Origin: a phage
Sequence record: PZ386953.1
Reading direction: 5' to 3' (one strand)
Length of the DNA stretch: 64,000 bases
The notes under the pieces are model-generated. The model saw only the letters and a list, made by a program, of their open reading frames with translations, was not told the origin of the DNA and ran no database searches. Of the stretch, positions 45,600 through 50,403 are shown piece by piece. Both the position numbers and the translations under genes were made by a program. Each line of letters opens with the position of its first letter. Within the stretch, counting starts at the first letter, position 1.

Positions 45600-45965
45600 A
45601 TGGAACAAATGAACGATCAAGCGTCGGTTGCGATGAACGAGCAAGAACAACCTCAAGAATTTTTCTTAGGGTTAAGTAAAGATCAAGTGTCTCTTCTACT
45701 AGTGCTTTCTTCTTTCATGGGAAGACTTCAGGAGCTCACACAACAACCAGAGGCTGAACAATTATTTCAAGCTCTGCGTGAAGAAGAAAAATATCGTCGT
45801 TTGGACTATGCCTTAGGTTGGGTAGCTCAACAACGAGATATGCTGATGGCCCTCTCTGGGACCACAAGTTTTGCAATGGGGCTGTTGGCTCAAGTTCAGG
45901 ACAAATTAATTCAAGCAGGGTTTGCACACACGGCAAACACTAACGAAGAACAAGGAGACAAATAA
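45600..45965 (+). CDS. hypothetical protein
   Basis: 121 aa; promoter-like TTGTAA-17-TAAAAT at 45527-45555 upstream. Confidence 0.4.
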   Translation: MEQMNDQASVAMNEQEQPQEFFLGLSKDQVSLLLVLSSFMGRLQELTQQPEAEQLFQALREEEKYRRLDYALGWVAQQRDMLMALSGTTSFAMGLLAQVQDKLIQAGFAHTANTNEEQGDK

Positions 45966-47191
45966 TGAGCGTTATTCAACAATTCGCTAACCCGATGAAT
46001 CCGCGTGAAACTGTTTTACTGGCTCACGGCATGATTAAACGTGTCAGCATCAAGCCTATCAAAGGTGCTGATCCTACAACAGGTATTAAAACCACTGTGT
46101 GGCAAGGTAAGAAAATTGAATCCAGCCACACCATCTCTTTACTGATTTCTGAACTGGATTCCTCTGATAACCTGCTTCAAGGTGGTGAAGAAGTTTGGAT
46201 CAGCATGGGTGATAAGCTGCTTAAACCTGGTCATCAAGACTCTGTCTCTGTTAAAATTGATGACAAGTGGGAAACCGTAACGCCGGGATGGATCGTAAAT
46301 ATTCCTTTGAAGGCAAACGAGCATAACGGTAAGACCTATTACAAAGGCTCACTGGCTAAGATGGTCAAGCTGGGTGCAGGAGAGGCTCCAGCAGCGACTC
46401 AGCAGCAAAAACAGCAACAAGGTGCACAATCACAAGGCCAGAAGCAGAAACCTCAGCAGAATGCCAATCAGGACGTTTTACGCATCTATGGTGATGTGAC
46501 TCAGATTGTTGGCAACGTGGTTACTGTTAATGACCACAAGATTGGCGAAGGTGCTATGGTTGTAACTGATGAGCAGCTTAAAGACCTGGTGGTAGGTGGT
46601 CGTGTTGCAGCCATTGTTGACAAAGACACCGGAAACATTATCAGTGGTTTCAAGGCCTATCCTCCTAAGGCAGAGAACGGCACTCAAGGCTCTGGTGGCA
46701 AGCGTAAATCCTCTTACGACCCTATCGGTGTGGAAACGGGGCATAGCATCAATGCGTTGCAGATCATCCTGGATCGCGGGTTTAAGGTAGACGACCCACT
46801 GGGCGTGGCTAAAACACTGCACGTAGTCACCATTGAGCTTAAGAAAGAGTATGCTCAAGCCACCAACCGAACTGAAGATGAAGTAGGTGCCAGTGTCGGT
46901 AATGCGGTGTTGAACGCTTGTCGCCGTATTGACAAGAAAACGAAAGTTGATGATTTTGCAGTGGCAATTACTGCAGAAGCAAAAGATGTCTTGACTAATC
47001 TAGCTGAGCCGTTGTACGATTGGATCAAGAACGGTGCTGAGTCCACTGACCATCAAGAACCTCAGGCTGCCAAACAGGAAGCAGCTCCACAGCAAAACAC
47101 TGTAGACGCTCCTCCTGTAAATGATGCGGAAGATGACCCAATGGATCAGAATCCAGCACAGTACGTCTTTGATGATGACATCCCATTTTAA
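45965..47191 (+). CDS. DNA-binding protein with SSB-type acidic C-terminal tail
   Basis: 408 aa ending ...YVFDDDIPF (E. coli SSB ends DDDIPF); Q-rich and G-rich linkers; TAATG overlap; terminator follows. Confidence 0.45.
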   Translation: MSVIQQFANPMNPRETVLLAHGMIKRVSIKPIKGADPTTGIKTTVWQGKKIESSHTISLLISELDSSDNLLQGGEEVWISMGDKLLKPGHQDSVSVKIDDKWETVTPGWIVNIPLKANEHNGKTYYKGSLAKMVKLGAGEAPAATQQQKQQQGAQSQGQKQKPQQNANQDVLRIYGDVTQIVGNVVTVNDHKIGEGAMVVTDEQLKDLVVGGRVAAIVDKDTGNIISGFKAYPPKAENGTQGSGGKRKSSYDPIGVETGHSINALQIILDRGFKVDDPLGVAKTLHVVTIELKKEYAQATNRTEDEVGASVGNAVLNACRRIDKKTKVDDFAVAITAEAKDVLTNLAEPLYDWIKNGAESTDHQEPQAAKQEAAPQQNTVDAPPVNDAEDDPMDQNPAQYVFDDDIPF

Positions 47192-47203
47192 CATTTAGTT
47201 AAC

Positions 47204-47234
47204 ATAGCCCTGCCCGAAAGGGTGGGGCATTTTT
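47204..47234 (+). terminator. intrinsic terminator
   Basis: GCCCTGCCC-GAAA-GGGTGGGGC then ATTTTTG. Confidence 0.7.
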
Positions 47235-47253
47235 GTATAAGGAGATCTAAAAA

Positions 47254-47670
47254 ATGACATTAGAAGATATCATTGTTAAACCTGAGAACTATGACCAATA
47301 CAACCTGTCAACTCAATCTGTAGACCTTGGATGCGCCACGGTCAGTGCGTGGCTGGTTAACGGAAAAGAGCTGGATAAATGCTTAGAAGCTCACATGTCT
47401 ATTAACAAGTTTCTGGATGAAAATACTCACTGGCTTGAGGGTGCAGGAGTATATGCTTCATGGTTGGAAAGTATGGGATTCGACTACCAATCTGAAGAAG
47501 GGTGGTGGAGCTATTTAGCTATCTGCCCAGAGACGCTGCAATGCTTCATGAAATATTCTGAAGATTTGGAGTACCGGGCGGTGGTTGATAGTGCTATTGC
47601 CCGTTATAGCCGTAAACCTTTTTCCCACGACATTAAAACTGTGGAAGAGTTTGTTGAAGTTTTCTGTTGA
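47254..47670 (+). CDS. hypothetical protein
   Basis: 138 aa; TAAGGAGA RBS. Confidence 0.4.
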   Translation: MTLEDIIVKPENYDQYNLSTQSVDLGCATVSAWLVNGKELDKCLEAHMSINKFLDENTHWLEGAGVYASWLESMGFDYQSEEGWWSYLAICPETLQCFMKYSEDLEYRAVVDSAIARYSRKPFSHDIKTVEEFVEVFC

Positions 47671-47766
47671 CACAGGTGGAAAGGTGTGCAATTATAACTT
47701 CATAGAACGGGAGGACGTGATGAACGAAGAAAACTGGGATGTATAACTAACAGGAGGCCACTGCCC

Positions 47767-47964
47767 ATGATTTATCGAATCCGTGTAAGAGAAGATGCAC
47801 CAGGCTGTTACTTTGACTGGCGTGGGTGGTGGTTTCTCCACCCAATGGATGGACTCACGGATAGAATGCTGGATGCTGCCCTTTATACAGATACCGACAT
47901 AGAATATAATCTCTATCTGAAGGACGGTATAGATAACGGCCTGTTTGAAGCAATTCCTGTGTAA
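47767..47964 (+). CDS. hypothetical protein
   Basis: 65 aa; AGGAGG RBS; promoter 47667-47696 upstream. Confidence 0.35.
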   Translation: MIYRIRVREDAPGCYFDWRGWWFLHPMDGLTDRMLDAALYTDTDIEYNLYLKDGIDNGLFEAIPV

Positions 47965-48029
47965 GAGACTGTGATAGCTATGTTTTATGATCTTCCTGTA
48001 ACACCACCTGTTGAACCCGGAGAACTAAG

Positions 48030-48455
48030 ATGATCTATGAAATGCCAAAACTGATTCGTGACGATGCCCAAAACGCCCACACCTTTATCATGGGCAAGCG
48101 CATGGATATTATTTGTCATAAAGATTTCTGGGAAGGTAGTTACTTCACAGAATATTTTGGTAAACTGGATAATGGTCTGCTGATCCAGTTCTACACCGAT
48201 GCGGAAAACAATATCTGCTGGGAGTTCGAAACTGAAGATATCCATAAACTTTTCACCTTCCTAGGTATTAAGGTTGAGGCCAAGTTTGAAGAAGGCGAGT
48301 GCGACGATTGTGGATTCTACGAGGTAACAGATTTCTATCTCCCAAGTGGTGAGAACCTTTACTATGAAAGCCACTTCGGCAACTCAAATATGCCACAAGG
48401 TTGGGATGAGTTTTTTGAAATTGCGGAAGAGGAGCTGACATACCGTGATTATTGA
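48030..48455 (+). CDS. hypothetical protein
   Basis: 141-aa ORF. Confidence 0.4.
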   Translation: MIYEMPKLIRDDAQNAHTFIMGKRMDIICHKDFWEGSYFTEYFGKLDNGLLIQFYTDAENNICWEFETEDIHKLFTFLGIKVEAKFEEGECDDCGFYEVTDFYLPSGENLYYESHFGNSNMPQGWDEFFEIAEEELTYRDY

Positions 48456-48903
48456 TACTGTAGCGGGAGATTTAATCTCCCTTTTTAAGAGCGGTGCTGG
48501 TCACCTGATCCACGGTTGTAACTGCTTTCATACAATGGGTGCAGGCATAGCGAAAGATATTGCCCGTGAGTTCCCTCAAGCACTGGCAGCCGACAAAGAG
48601 ACTGCCTATGGTAATCTGGACAAGCTGGGTATGTTTTCTTGTTGGGAGCATTTTGCCAAGAACAGGGTCGTATATGGAATCAACCTGTATACCCAGTTCT
48701 ACCCAGGGCCCAATGCTGAATACTTCTCAATAATGAAAGGTTTTGAGCGAGTCAACGAGGTATTCAAAGGTGTGTCATTGCCGTTCTACATTCCTAAAAT
48801 TGGATGCGGTATTGGCGGTCTAAAGTGGGAACATGTAGAAGATGTAATTAATCTTGCAACCACAGATATTGATGTGGTTGTAGTAGAGTACAAAAAGTGT
48901 TGA
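48445..48903 (+). CDS. macro-domain-like protein (ADP-ribose binding/processing?)
   Basis: N-terminal HGCNCFHTMGAGIAKDI and later IGCGIGGL resemble macro-domain glycine-rich loops. Confidence 0.4.
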   Translation: MIIDTVAGDLISLFKSGAGHLIHGCNCFHTMGAGIAKDIAREFPQALAADKETAYGNLDKLGMFSCWEHFAKNRVVYGINLYTQFYPGPNAEYFSIMKGFERVNEVFKGVSLPFYIPKIGCGIGGLKWEHVEDVINLATTDIDVVVVEYKKC

Positions 48904-48928
48904 CGACCATCTTCTGAGGTGATATAGT
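48900..48928 (+). promoter_or_regulatory. sigma70-like promoter
   Basis: TTGACG-17 bp-TATAGT. Confidence 0.5.
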
Positions 48929-48957
48929 TTCCACAACAACTAAGAGAGGAGAGCACT

Positions 48958-49128
48958 GTGGAGACTAAAATCTTAATTCTTGCTGTGGTAGATACAACCG
49001 AAGGAGCTATATTCGAATCTGCAGGGGGGTATTTCTACCTACCATACGGAAAAAGAACTTCCGAGCCAAGTAAAGATTCAATCCTCAAGGTGTTCCCGTG
49101 TGCTTTCTGGCTGGAGATTTTGGTATAA
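48958..49128 (+). CDS. small hypothetical protein (56 aa)
   Basis: GTG 8 nt after GAGGAGAG, downstream of promoter 48900-48928; below tool size cutoff. Confidence 0.25.
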   Translation: METKILILAVVDTTEGAIFESAGGYFYLPYGKRTSEPSKDSILKVFPCAFWLEILV

Positions 49129-49155
49129 GATTGCAGAGGATTTGGGAGAGAATTA

Positions 49156-49349
49156 TGAGAAACAAGAAAGAGCTTTACTCTGGTGAGTGGATCAACGATC
49201 AACAGGTGGGAGAGGTAACCTGCTTCCGATGTTTTACCAGGTACAATCTTAAAACTGCACCAAAAAGTGTTCCAAAGACTGATGGTTATTACATAAAAGA
49301 ACCTCATTGCCCAAAATGTAAATGCCGATTATACTGGAGTAACCTATAA
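49156..49349 (+). CDS. small zinc-ribbon protein
   Basis: ATG after GGGAGAGA; CFRCF...CPKCKC pairs. Confidence 0.35.
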
Positions 49350-49353
49350 AAGA

Positions 49354-49381
49354 TTGACATCTGAAAACTGCAGTGTATAAT
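49354..49381 (+). promoter_or_regulatory. consensus sigma70-like promoter
   Basis: TTGACA-16 bp-TATAAT. Confidence 0.55.
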
Positions 49382-49412
49382 ATATGCATAAACTAACAGA
49401 GAGTGATGTATT

Positions 49413-49604
49413 ATGGTAATTTTTAACCGGGATGGTATCATAGTTAGACAGCACCCCTTCCTTGAATACTATCAAATTGAGCAATGGTGCTACGGGGATT
49501 GCAGTCACTCCTACGGGCAAAGTTGGGGATATCGCACAGTTTTTGAATCAACAGATCTTGATAAAGTAAAACAGAAAGTTTTAGAACTTCTTAACAACAA
49601 GTGA
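49413..49604 (+). CDS. hypothetical protein
   Basis: 63 aa; consensus promoter 49354-49381 upstream. Confidence 0.35.
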   Translation: MVIFNRDGIIVRQHPFLEYYQIEQWCYGDCSHSYGQSWGYRTVFESTDLDKVKQKVLELLNNK

Positions 49605-49614
49605 GTATCGTGCC

Positions 49615-49947
49615 ATGGTAACTTTGGAAAGACGTAAAGCTATCGCCGCCACACTGGCAGACATCTTTTGGGATTGCAACTTAAAAGATACCCGAAATTG
49701 TGGCGCATCTGTAGATGTATTATTCCCACGGCCCACCATTGTTGCAATGGGAAACCTGTTAAACGTAGTGTACGGAGCATGGGACAAAGAAGGTGGATTC
49801 TATATCTGGCAACCTGACTACGGAGCCTGGAAAGAGGTAAGGGGTGCGGATGACTTTGGGCCTACAGTTGCTAAGATGGATGGCTGGGAAATTTATGTTG
49901 GAAACGACATGAAGCTGAAAGGCGAGATTGTTTACTGGTTACCTTAA
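49615..49947 (+). CDS. hypothetical protein
   Basis: 110-aa ORF. Confidence 0.4.
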   Translation: MVTLERRKAIAATLADIFWDCNLKDTRNCGASVDVLFPRPTIVAMGNLLNVVYGAWDKEGGFYIWQPDYGAWKEVRGADDFGPTVAKMDGWEIYVGNDMKLKGEIVYWLP

Positions 49948-49967
49948 GAAAGTGCAGGAGATAAAGT

Positions 49968-50213
49968 ATGAACAAAGGGTGGACATTTGTAGACGGCGTT
50001 AAAAACATGCCTCTAGGAAAGTATATCGTAGCCATGGCTGATGAGGATGGCAATGTAGATTTCGGAGCTTGCGAGGTTGTTCTTGCAGGATCTGGTAACT
50101 ATGTGAGTAAAACCGGGATAATTAACGGTCAGTTCTACTTTGATCACAACCCTGTTGTAGCGTATATGGCTATGCCAGAGTTCAAGTTCCCAAAGGAGGG
50201 TGCAGATGTTTAA
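49968..50213 (+). CDS. hypothetical protein
   Basis: 81 aa; CAGGAGA RBS. Confidence 0.4.
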   Translation: MNKGWTFVDGVKNMPLGKYIVAMADEDGNVDFGACEVVLAGSGNYVSKTGIINGQFYFDHNPVVAYMAMPEFKFPKEGADV

Positions 50214-50403
50214 GCTTAAATCTGCATGGAACATCGCTGTGGGGGACGAGATCCGTATCCCAGGTGGAAAGACCATTATGAAGATATCTCGTATTGAGTA
50301 CGAAGGTGACCGTGTATTCCACATCTTCGCAGAAGATGGTCGAGAAATTTATATACAGGCAGGTTCTCACATCTATATCCGTAAGAAAGGGGACGACAAA
50401 TGA
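50206..50403 (+). CDS. hypothetical protein
   Basis: ATG 5-6 nt after AAGGAGGG. Confidence 0.4.
   Translation: MFKLKSAWNIAVGDEIRIPGGKTIMKISRIEYEGDRVFHIFAEDGREIYIQAGSHIYIRKKGDDK

What the first reader, a model, noticed from the sequence alone, without database searches (positions are those of the whole stretch)
48445..48903. Macro-domain-like protein
Glycine-rich motifs (HGCNCFHTMGAGIA, IGCGIGGL) at positions typical of macro domains. Phage macro domains could reverse host ADP-ribosylation or degrade ADP-ribose-derived defence signals.
Basis: inference. Interest (0 to 1): 0.5.

Follow-up and report, generated by a model that had tools for sequence, protein, structure and literature searches.

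The report
Phage macrodomain, T4 AdfM-type counter-defence
This gene in an rV5-like coliphage encodes a genuine macrodomain enzyme related to phage T4 Tk.4/AdfM, which T4 needs to resist the bacterial DarTG2 defence that ADP-ribosylates DNA, so it is a real but already recognised kind of phage counter-defence gene.

Summary
ORF 48445-48903 (+) encodes a 152-aa macrodomain: it passes the Pfam Macro gathering score, the AlphaFold model has pLDDT 96.3, and the best fold matches are TARG1, Poa1p, DarG, BT1257 and SCO6735. The window is a Vequintavirus about 99% identical to phage Murica, whose gp091 is already annotated "phosphatase, contains Macro domain". The protein is a full-length homolog of T4 Tk.4 (39% identity, E = 1e-43). 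A 2025 preprint named Tk.4 AdfM because T4 lacking it becomes sensitive to DarTG2. The most likely function is therefore removal of DarT2-installed ADP-ribose from thymidines in phage single-stranded DNA. This is inferred by homology and has not been tested in any rV5-like phage. One detail goes beyond the annotation. At the position of the catalytic lysine of DarG, TARG1 and PhiKZ AdfM, this family has a near-invariant glutamine (119 of 120 sequences). SCO6735, a proven thymidine-ADP-ribose DNA hydrolase, also has an essential glutamine there. The protein is not a DarG: it scores 47 bits against a 250-bit cutoff, has no DarT-binding domain and has no darT neighbour. Verdict: a correct call, a new member of a known kind, of modest interest.

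The parts
48445..48903 (+). Coding sequence of the 152-aa macrodomain protein (GTG start, TGA stop), an ortholog of phage Murica gp091 and a homolog of T4 Tk.4/AdfM
   Evidence: ORF list. Pfam Macro above the gathering score. 99.3% identical by tblastn to the Murica genome. 39% identity and E = 1e-43 over the full length to T4 Tk.4. AF2 pLDDT 96.3.
48429..48434 (+). Shine-Dalgarno-like GAGGAG, 10 nt upstream of the GTG start. The start overlaps the stop of the upstream ORF (48030-48455), which suggests translational coupling.
   Evidence: Sequence read directly. An equivalent ribosome-binding site is annotated in Murica.
48466..48471 (+). Codons for G8-D9, the N-terminal G-D motif. In macrodomains this motif contacts the adenine of ADP-ribose (established knowledge of the fold).
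   Evidence: G8 is present in 111 of 120 and D/N9 in 115 of 120 family members. It aligns with the K-G-D-L motif of TARG1.
48511..48552 (+). Codons for residues 23-36, HGCNCFHTMGAGIA: loop 1 of the ADP-ribose pocket, including H23 and N26. N26 is equivalent to DarG N22, PhiKZ AdfM N23 and SCO6735 N27.
   Evidence: H23 118/120, G24 119/120, N26 119/120, G34 119/120, A36 119/120. Alignments to DarG, Poa1p, SCO6735 and TARG1. Roles of the equivalent residues are described in PMC9411070 and PMC13309987.
48682..48696 (+). Codons for residues 80-84, N-L-Y-T-Q. Q84 occupies the position of the catalytic Lys of TARG1 (K84), DarG (K80) and PhiKZ AdfM (K78), and of the essential Gln85 of SCO6735.
   Evidence: N80 119/120, Y82 119/120, Q84 119/120. 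HMM alignments, BLASTP against a bona fide DarG and hhalign at 98.9% probability all agree. The Q85A mutant of SCO6735 is inactive (PMC9411070).
48793..48822 (+). Codons for residues 117-126, PKIGCGIGGL: the glycine-rich loop 2 (diphosphate-binding loop). G124 sits where TARG1 has its second catalytic residue, D125.
   Evidence: P117, G120 and G122 are each present in 119 of 120 members. Alignment to TARG1 P-R-I-G-C-G-L-D-R-L and to DarG P-P-L-G-x-G-N-G-G-L.

Best explanation
The gene encodes a stand-alone, single-domain macrodomain of the TARG1/DarG/SCO6735 (ALC1-like) class, belonging to the phage Tk.4 family that includes T4 AdfM. The most likely mechanism runs as follows. The gene is expressed with the surrounding block of small accessory genes. 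The protein binds the ADP-ribose moiety that the host toxin DarT2 attaches to thymidines in single-stranded phage DNA. It hydrolyses the ribose-thymine N-glycosidic bond, releasing free ADP-ribose and restoring replicable DNA. It thus acts as an orphan antitoxin that neutralises DarTG2 defence. Catalysis probably does not use the lysine of DarG and TARG1. Instead it probably uses the Asn26/Gln84 pair, as in SCO6735, where Gln positions the distal ribose and a water molecule is the chemical actor. What is shown here: the fold, class membership, homology to T4 Tk.4, and conservation of the pocket residues. What is inferred: ADP-ribose binding, the DNA-thymidine substrate, the DarTG2 target in this phage, and the Gln-based chemistry.
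For: The macro fold is modelled with high confidence, and the closest structures are TARG1, Poa1p, DarG, BT1257 and SCO6735. The PADLOC DarG model matches at E = 1.4e-13. The NCBIfam DarG model matches over its macrodomain part at E = 1.7e-12. Homology to T4 Tk.4 is full-length (39% identity, E = 1e-43), both proteins hit PHROG 335, and Tk.4 has only one significant hit in the window (E = 3e-37; next hit E = 0.13). tk.4 was the single significant hit in a T4 transposon screen on DarTG2, and a clean knockout sensitised T4. PhiKZ gp104, a more distant phage macrodomain, removes DarT2 ADP-ribose from DNA in vitro and protects the phage. Q84 aligns with the catalytic Lys in every profile alignment. 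SCO6735 carries Gln at that site, removes thymidine-linked ADP-ribose from DNA, rescues E. coli from DarT, and loses activity in Q85A and N27S mutants. N26 and Q84 are each present in 119 of 120 relatives. The gene lies in a same-strand array of small genes of unknown function downstream of the DNA polymerase, with sigma-70-like promoter matches above the shuffle mean (14 against 8.2 +/- 2.9), as expected for early accessory or anti-defence genes.
Against: No rV5-like phage has been tested against DarTG2. The study that named T4 AdfM used the Vequintavirus Bas54 but not on DarTG2. The T4 evidence is genetic only and comes from a preprint, with no biochemistry for any Tk.4-type protein. At 39% identity substrate specificity could differ. 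The DNA-positioning lysines of SCO6735 (K34, K89) and its longer mobile loop are absent here: A33 replaces K34 and the loop is the short FYPGPNAEY. SCO6735 Val25 is Gly24 here. Relatives in this class also act on proteins, on RNA uracil and on ADP-ribose 1''-phosphate, so the fold alone does not fix the substrate.
Confidence: 0.6

Rival explanations
1. It is a broad or differently targeted de-ADP-ribosylase. Its main substrate in this phage would be ADP-ribosylated protein or RNA rather than DarT2-modified DNA, for example products of other host ART toxins or defence ARTs, or uracil-ADP-ribose on RNA.
For: SCO6735, which shares the Gln-type site, also hydrolyses protein ADP-ribosylation and uracil-linked ADP-ribose on RNA. 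TARG1, the top fold match, acts on proteins, DNA and RNA. The DNA-positioning lysines of SCO6735 are missing here. Chromosomal Gln-type relatives are orphans without a DarT partner.
Against: The only phenotype reported for a family member (T4 Tk.4) is sensitivity to DarTG2, and it was the single significant hit on that system. No phage ART is annotated in the equivalent of this window. Bas54 seems to lack an Alt-like activity, because T4 Alt supplied in trans improves its plaquing on Mokosh.
Confidence: 0.15
2. It neutralises DarT2 mainly without catalysis, by binding the toxin or shielding ADP-ribosylated sites, acting as an inhibitor or reader rather than an eraser.
For: Catalytically dead SCO6735 (Q85A), DarG (K80A) and TARG1 (K84A) still inhibit DarT in vitro, and SCO6735 is the strongest of them. 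The canonical catalytic Lys is absent from this family.
Against: The pocket residues that matter for SCO6735 catalysis (Asn and Gln) are near-invariant across 120 relatives, which argues for selection on chemistry. The protein lacks the dedicated DarT-binding C-terminal domain of DarG. PhiKZ AdfM works catalytically.
Confidence: 0.08
3. It binds or degrades an ADP-ribose-derived immune signal, such as the Thoeris signals gcADPR or His-ADPR.
For: Macrodomains can bind such signals: the Thoeris II effector ThsA uses a macrodomain to bind His-ADPR. Nothing in the sequence excludes small-molecule ligands.
Against: No family member has such an activity on record. The nearest characterised relatives are hydrolases of macromolecule-linked ADP-ribose. 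The T4 screen linked the family to DarTG2.
Confidence: 0.07
4. It is a metabolic ADP-ribose 1''-phosphate phosphatase or O-acetyl-ADP-ribose deacetylase. This is the historical 'phosphatase' / 'A1pp' annotation.
For: T4 Tk.4, Murica gp091 and PHROG 335 are all labelled 'phosphatase'. Yeast Poa1p is among the top sequence and fold matches and shares H23, a Ser/Thr at position 30 and the H-x-C-N-C loop.
Against: The label derives from domain naming, not from an assay. Poa1p is no closer than TARG1, DarG or SCO6735. The MacroD/YmdB-type motifs are absent, since loop 1 is NCFHTMGAGIA and lacks the G-G-G-V-D Asp. From established knowledge, there is no evident source of ADP-ribose 1''-phosphate in phage-infected E. 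coli.
Confidence: 0.05

Closest known systems
T4 Tk.4 = AdfM (anti-DarT factor, Macrodomain), bioRxiv 10.1101/2025.11.20.689424
   Same: It is a single-domain phage protein of about 150 aa that aligns end to end with the window protein (39% identity, E = 1e-43). Both hit PHROG 335. Both share the signature H-G-C-N-C-F-H-T-M-G, E/A-A-D-K, K-L-G, N-L-Y-T-Q-F-x-P-G-P-N and P-x-I-G-x-G-I-G. Both lie among small accessory genes.
   Different: The phage family differs (Straboviridae against Vequintavirinae), as do the neighbouring genes. The two proteins differ at 61% of positions. The anti-DarTG2 phenotype is shown only for T4.
Streptomyces coelicolor SCO6735 (PDB 5E3B) and Bacteroides BT1257 (2FG1/2AFC)
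   Same: They belong to the same ALC1-like class and are the best profile-to-PDB matches (E = 2e-15 and 1.8e-14). They share the N-x-x-x-Q motif with Gln at the catalytic-Lys position, and the His-x-Cys-Asn loop. SCO6735 removes thymidine-linked ADP-ribose from DNA and is an orphan, not paired with DarT.
   Different: Sequence identity is only about 21-23%. SCO6735 has Val25, K34, K89 and a mobile loop five residues longer than in DarG and TARG1. The window protein has G24, A33 and a short Pro-rich loop. D50, invariant in the phage family, is not conserved in SCO6735 or BT1257.
DarG antitoxin of DarTG2 (PDB 5M31/5M3E/5M3I; NCBIfam NF048014) and the DarG-derived PhiKZ gp104 AdfM
   Same: The macro fold and the Asn of loop 1 are shared, the I-N-x-x-T strand precedes the catalytic position, and the G-x-G-x-G-G-L loop is present. 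hhalign gives 98.9% probability. The predicted function, erasing DarT2 marks, is the same.
   Different: DarG and PhiKZ AdfM have Lys (F-P-T-K) where this protein has Gln. On the DarG model the window protein scores 47.3 bits, against 137.8 for PhiKZ gp104 and 362.7 for a true DarG, with a cutoff of 250. There is no C-terminal DarT-binding domain and no adjacent darT. The window protein and PhiKZ gp104 are only about 22% identical (E = 8e-5).
Human TARG1/OARD1 (PDB 4J5R/4J5S)
   Same: It is the top Foldseek match (E = 3.7e-9, TM 0.73-0.79), of the same size and topology, with the M-G-A-G-I-A and P-x-I-G-C-G-L loops.
   Different: TARG1's catalytic dyad K84/D125 corresponds to Q84/G124 here. 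TARG1 has Ser where this protein has N26.

Membership tests
Macro domain superfamily (Pfam PF01661) | Sequence passes the curated Pfam gathering score | tested here: met
   25.9 bits against a cutoff of 22, E = 1e-5
Macro domain superfamily (Pfam PF01661) | Three-layer alpha/beta/alpha macro fold | tested here: met
   AF2 pLDDT 96.3 and pTM 0.91. Foldseek probability 1.00 to dozens of solved macrodomains, with TM 0.70-0.77 to the best.
Macro domain superfamily (Pfam PF01661) | Binds ADP-ribose | not testable with these tools
   Only the pocket motifs are seen: G8-D9, N26...G32-x-G34, and G120-x-G122-x-x-G125.
ALC1-like / TARG1-like macrodomain class (TARG1, DarG, SCO6735, Poa1p) | Closest sequence and structure relatives are members of this class rather than MacroD, PARG or viral Mac1 types | tested here: met
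   Profile-to-PDB E-values of 2e-15 to 1e-10 for BT1257, SCO6735, TARG1, DarG and Poa1p, against about 7e-4 for coronavirus Mac1. Foldseek ranks the same set on top.
T4 Tk.4-type AdfM family | Full-length homology to T4 Tk.4 and a unique reciprocal match | tested here: met
   39% identity, E = 1e-43, residues 1-150 against 1-152. Tk.4 has one significant hit in the window, at 48445-48894, E = 2.9e-37, with the next hit at E = 0.13. Both proteins hit PHROG 335.
T4 Tk.4-type AdfM family | Family signature residues (H23, N26, D50, N80, Y82, Q84, P117, G120, G122) | tested here: met
   All are present in the window protein and in T4 Tk.4, and each is present in 118-120 of 120 relatives.
T4 Tk.4-type AdfM family | Required for phage growth on DarTG2-expressing hosts | not testable with these tools
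   Shown for T4 only. Bas54, a Vequintavirus, was not challenged with DarTG2.
DarG antitoxin (NCBIfam NF048014, equivalog) | Score above the curated cutoff, with the two-domain architecture of macrodomain plus C-terminal DarT-binding domain | tested here: not met
   47.3 bits against a cutoff of 250. The match covers only profile positions 4-144 of 338, and the protein is 152 aa. A true DarG scores 362.7 bits.
DarG antitoxin (NCBIfam NF048014, equivalog) | Catalytic lysine (T. aquaticus K80) in the F-P-T-K motif | tested here: not met
   Gln84 aligns with the Lys in HMM, BLASTP and hhalign alignments. Gln is present in 119 of 120 relatives.
DarG antitoxin (NCBIfam NF048014, equivalog) | Encoded next to a darT (DUF4433) toxin gene | tested here: not met
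   The neighbours are phage genes in PHROGs of unknown function. For contrast, see the pMARC5 DUF4433/DarT-like + DarG pair.
SCO6735-type Gln-dependent thymidine-ADP-ribose hydrolases | Gln at the catalytic-Lys position, held by the loop-1 Asn | tested here: met
   Q84 and N26 align with Q85 and N27 of SCO6735. Their roles are described in PMC9411070.
SCO6735-type Gln-dependent thymidine-ADP-ribose hydrolases | SCO6735-specific Val/Ile25, DNA-positioning K34 and K89, and the extended mobile loop | tested here: not met
   The window protein has G24 (119/120), A33 and a short FYPGPNAEY loop. The HMM alignment shows the SCO6735 and BT1257 loop as an insertion.
Poa1p-type ADP-ribose 1''-phosphate phosphatase | Residues mutated in the Poa1p structures (H23, S30, F152), and phosphatase activity | tested here: inconclusive
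   H23 is conserved. T30 stands in for S30. G124 lies at the F152 position, as read from the alignment of the F152A chain. Activity is not testable.
MacroD/YmdB-type O-acetyl-ADP-ribose deacetylases | The N-x(6)-G-G-G-V-D and G-[VIA]-[YF]-G catalytic motifs (motif definitions recalled from established knowledge) | tested here: not met
   Loop 1 is N-C-F-H-T-M-G-A-G-I-A with no Asp. Apart from TTHA0132 (2dx6, E = 7e-5, class not checked), all hits stronger than the viral Mac1 group (E ~7e-4) belong to the TARG1/DarG/SCO6735/Poa1p set.

The most novel reading that the evidence does not exclude
The Tk.4-type phage macrodomains (T4 AdfM, this Vequintavirus protein and their relatives across many phage genomes) would not be captured DarG antitoxins. 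They would be a separate enzyme lineage that erases nucleic-acid ADP-ribosylation without the catalytic lysine, using an invariant Asn26/Gln84 pair and perhaps the family-specific invariant Asp50. They might also have a wider substrate range, such as thymidine-ADP-ribose on DNA plus uracil-ADP-ribose on RNA or protein marks. Phages would then have acquired anti-DarT2 macrodomains at least twice: a Lys type in chimalliviruses and a Gln type in T4-like and rV5-like phages.
Probability: 0.35. Interest if true: 0.5.

Novelty: new member of a known kind. Interest (0 to 1): 0.3.

Why it matters
If the inference holds, rV5-like coliphages, a group used in phage-therapy cocktails, carry a ready-made counter to DarTG2. 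DarTG2 occurs in pathogenic E. coli and other pathogens, so the gene would help predict host range. The family is widespread: tblastn finds matches, most below 60% identity and including the more distant Lys-type macrodomains, in 2,742 of 50,697 phage records. The Gln-for-Lys active site gives a concrete, testable mechanistic contrast with DarG and PhiKZ AdfM. The gene and its domain are already annotated in close relatives, and the function was already proposed for the T4 homolog, so the advance here is incremental.

Tried and rejected
1. Membership in DarG proper was rejected: 47 bits against a 250-bit cutoff, a single domain, Gln instead of Lys, and no darT neighbour.

2. I looked for a partner ADP-ribosyltransferase, NADAR or NAD-metabolism gene in the window's equivalent in phage MiataMamis. 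None is annotated, although most genes there are 'hypothetical'. PHROG scans of ten neighbours gave only families of unknown function.

3. I checked a 2026 preprint on Thoeris II for a phage macrodomain acting on signals. The macrodomain it describes is the host effector ThsA, so it offers no support.

4. Pairwise BLAST and MAFFT with PhiKZ gp104 mis-register the catalytic strand, placing K78 opposite A91. This was resolved by hhalign and by alignment to a bona fide DarG.

5. Overall charge was tested as an argument against DNA binding and found uninformative. The pI of 5.9 is similar to T4 Tk.4 (5.9), PhiKZ AdfM (5.05) and a DarG macrodomain (5.5).

6. The genomic context of a chromosomal Gln-type homolog (Pelagimonas) shows housekeeping neighbours and no toxin partner.

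7. The terminator-like hairpin inside the ORF occurs at a frequency expected by chance.

8. I could not inspect 3D distances between N26, D50 and Q84, because the model coordinates are not exposed.

9. The LeRoux 2022 DarTG paper is not held in the library.

10. I did not check whether DarTG2-sensitive phages such as T5 lack a homolog.

Full report
**The observation**

It runs from 48445 to 48903 on the + strand, starts with GTG and encodes 152 aa. A GAGGAG ribosome-binding site lies 10 nt upstream, and the start overlaps the end of the upstream ORF (48030-48455) by 11 nt. The two quoted motifs sit at residues 23-36 (HGCNCFHTMGAGIA) and 119-126 (IGCGIGGL).

The macro-domain reading passes every test I could apply:
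- Pfam Macro PF01661 scores 25.9 bits against a gathering score of 22.
- PHROG 335 matches at E = 1.4e-59.
- A 70-sequence family profile hits solved macrodomains at E = 2e-15 to 1e-10.
- The AlphaFold2 model is very confident, with pLDDT 96.3 and pTM 0.91.
- Foldseek places TARG1, Poa1p, DarG, BT1257 and SCO6735 on top, with probability 1.00 and TM about 0.70-0.77.

**Where the gene sits**

The window is a Vequintavirus, an rV5-like coliphage. The 3.2 kb around the gene is 98.8% identical to phages Murica and MiataMamis, and 116 phage records carry most of it. In Murica the ortholog gp091 is already annotated "phosphatase; contains Macro domain", and other relatives call it "macro domain protein".

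The gene lies in a long same-strand array of small genes downstream of the DNA polymerase. All ten neighbours I scanned belong to PHROGs of unknown function. Sigma-70-like promoter matches are somewhat above the shuffle mean (14 against 8.2 ± 2.9), including a perfect consensus at 49354-49381. That fits an early, host-RNAP-transcribed accessory block, but this is an inference.

No ADP-ribosyltransferase, NADAR or NAD-metabolism gene is annotated in the equivalent of the window. The window contains no second macrodomain.

**What it is related to**

tblastn finds relatives in 2,742 of 50,697 phage records. Most are below 60% identity, and the set includes the more distant Lys-type macrodomains. 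In T4-like phages the hit lies next to *vs*, which is T4 gene *tk.4*, annotated "phosphatase; contains A1pp phosphatase motif".

The window protein aligns end to end with T4 Tk.4 at 39% identity and E = 1e-43. Tk.4 has one significant match in the window, this ORF (E = 3e-37, next hit E = 0.13).

A 2025 preprint found *tk.4* to be the single significant hit when a T4 transposon library was grown on DarTG2-expressing E. coli. It showed that a clean knockout becomes DarTG2-sensitive, and it named the gene *adfM*, for anti-DarT factor Macrodomain (10.1101/2025.11.20.689424).

Independently, a Cell Reports paper gave the same name to PhiKZ gp104. That paper showed the protein removes DarT2-installed ADP-ribose from DNA in vitro and protects chimalliviruses from DarTG2. 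Its active-site residues are N23 and K78, equivalent to *T. aquaticus* DarG N22 and K80 (PMC13309987).

Neither study tested an rV5-like phage. Bas54, a Vequintavirus, was used in the first study but was not challenged with DarTG2.

**The active site**

Across 120 relatives the following residues are essentially invariant: H23, G24, N26, D50, N80, Y82, Q84, P117, G120 and G122.

Q84 occupies the position of the catalytic lysine in every profile-based alignment:
- TARG1 K84.
- The M. tuberculosis DarG "FPTK" lysine.
- A bona fide plasmid DarG that scores 362.7 bits on NF048014 and lies next to a DUF4433 gene scoring 100.9 bits on the DarT model, below that model's 150-bit cutoff.
- A DarG-type profile that includes PhiKZ gp104, by hhalign at 98.9% probability.

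The weak pairwise BLAST and MAFFT alignments with PhiKZ gp104 alone mis-register this strand, and I discount them.

The same Lys-to-Gln substitution is found in SCO6735 and BT1257, the best profile-to-PDB matches. SCO6735 removes thymidine-linked ADP-ribose from DNA and rescues E. coli from DarT. It loses activity in Q85A, Q85E and N27S mutants. Its authors propose a water-mediated mechanism in which Gln positions the distal ribose (PMC9411070).

The Gln-type site is therefore compatible with the DarT2-reversing activity that the T4 genetics implies.

The phage family is nevertheless not simply SCO6735-like. Gly24 replaces Val25, Ala33 replaces the DNA-positioning Lys34, and the mobile loop is short and lacks Lys89. 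It also has its own invariant Asp50, whose role I cannot explain.

**Relationship to DarG**

On the NCBIfam DarG model PhiKZ gp104 scores 137.8 bits, the window protein 47.3 and T4 Tk.4 30.3, against a cutoff of 250. PADLOC's DarG model gives the same order.

The window protein and PhiKZ gp104 are only about 22% identical, although PHROG 335 lumps them together.

The protein has no DarT-binding domain and no *darT* neighbour. A chromosomal Gln-type relative in *Pelagimonas* is likewise an orphan among housekeeping genes.

The window protein thus works like DarG's macrodomain, in all likelihood, but it is not a member of the DarG family. The data suggest two distinct lineages of phage anti-DarT2 macrodomains: a Lys type in chimalliviruses and a Gln type in T4-like and rV5-like phages. 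Neither paper mentions this in the passages I read.

**Most likely mechanism (confidence about 0.6)**

The protein would be an orphan-antitoxin-like ADP-ribosylglycohydrolase, made during infection. It would bind ADP-ribose attached by DarT2 to thymidines in single-stranded phage DNA and hydrolyse the ribose-base bond through the Asn26/Gln84 pocket. That would restore replication and defeat DarTG2.

Shown here: the fold, the class, the homology and the residue conservation. Inferred: ligand binding, substrate, target system and chemistry.

**Rivals**

- A different principal substrate, protein or RNA, is possible. SCO6735 and TARG1 are promiscuous. Confidence 0.15.
- Non-catalytic inhibition of DarT is possible, because catalytically dead mutants of this class still inhibit DarT. 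Confidence 0.08.
- Binding or degradation of ADP-ribose-derived signals has no direct evidence. The host protein ThsA shows that macrodomains can bind such signals. Confidence 0.07.
- The historical "phosphatase" label implies an ADP-ribose 1''-phosphate phosphatase. Poa1p shares H23 and a Ser/Thr at position 30 but is no closer than the other relatives. Confidence 0.05.
- Overall charge does not discriminate between these readings.

**Verdict**

Both the domain annotation and the family-level function are already in the public record, so this is a new, untested member of a known kind. The Gln-type active site and the two-lineage picture are the only points that go beyond existing descriptions. 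Interest 0.3.

Noticed in passing
window 48465-48481 (+): A terminator-like hairpin (GGGAGATTTAATCTCCC followed by TTTTT) lies about 20 nt inside the macrodomain ORF. The same element is annotated as 'terminator' in the Murica record. The number of such sites in the region is what shuffles predict (4 against 3.7), so it may be chance.
   Followed up: partly
L003:15095-15463 (phage MiataMamis PP925834): The ortholog is annotated only from Met31 (122 aa). This cuts off the first beta-strand, the G-D adenine motif and the H-G-C-N loop. Homology to T4 Tk.4 from residue 1 shows the longer GTG-start ORF is the correct one.
   Followed up: yes
window 47200-50400 against GenBank MG0656xx records: Sixteen records named 'Campylobacter phage' (C15, A12a, C5, D1 and others) match this E. 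coli Vequintavirus region; the five listed are 96-97.5% identical. The host label looks doubtful and may reflect contamination or mis-assignment.
   Followed up: no
H56, CP057073.1 (E. coli 'plasmid', 137,565 bp): A record filed as a plasmid carries a 94% identical protein and has the size of a Vequintavirus genome. It is probably phage DNA deposited as a plasmid.
   Followed up: no
window 49354-49381 (+) and 48900-48928 (+): A perfect sigma-70 consensus (TTGACA-16-TATAAT) lies about 450 nt downstream of the gene. A 10/12 match with an extended TG overlaps the macrodomain stop codon. This suggests densely spaced host-type promoters in this accessory block.
   Followed up: no
window 45965-47191 (+) and 47207-47228: A 408-aa protein with a long Gln-rich low-complexity linker (PHROG 4477, unknown function) is followed by the strongest terminator-like hairpin in the region (9-bp stem with 7 G-C pairs, then a T-run). 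The macrodomain gene therefore probably belongs to the next transcription unit.
   Followed up: no
window 48592-48594 (codon 50): Asp50 is invariant in 120 of 120 family members. It aligns with a Glu in M. tuberculosis DarG (Y-E-K) but is not conserved in SCO6735 or BT1257. Its role is unexplained and could not be checked without model coordinates.
   Followed up: partly
L006:1-4038 (Paracoccus marcusii plasmid pMARC5): A DUF4433/DarT-like gene (100.9 bits, below the 150-bit DarT cutoff) paired with a bona fide DarG sits immediately downstream of E2/UBC, ThiF-family E1 and DUF6527 genes. This is a ubiquitin-like conjugation cassette, possibly a defence island.
   Followed up: no
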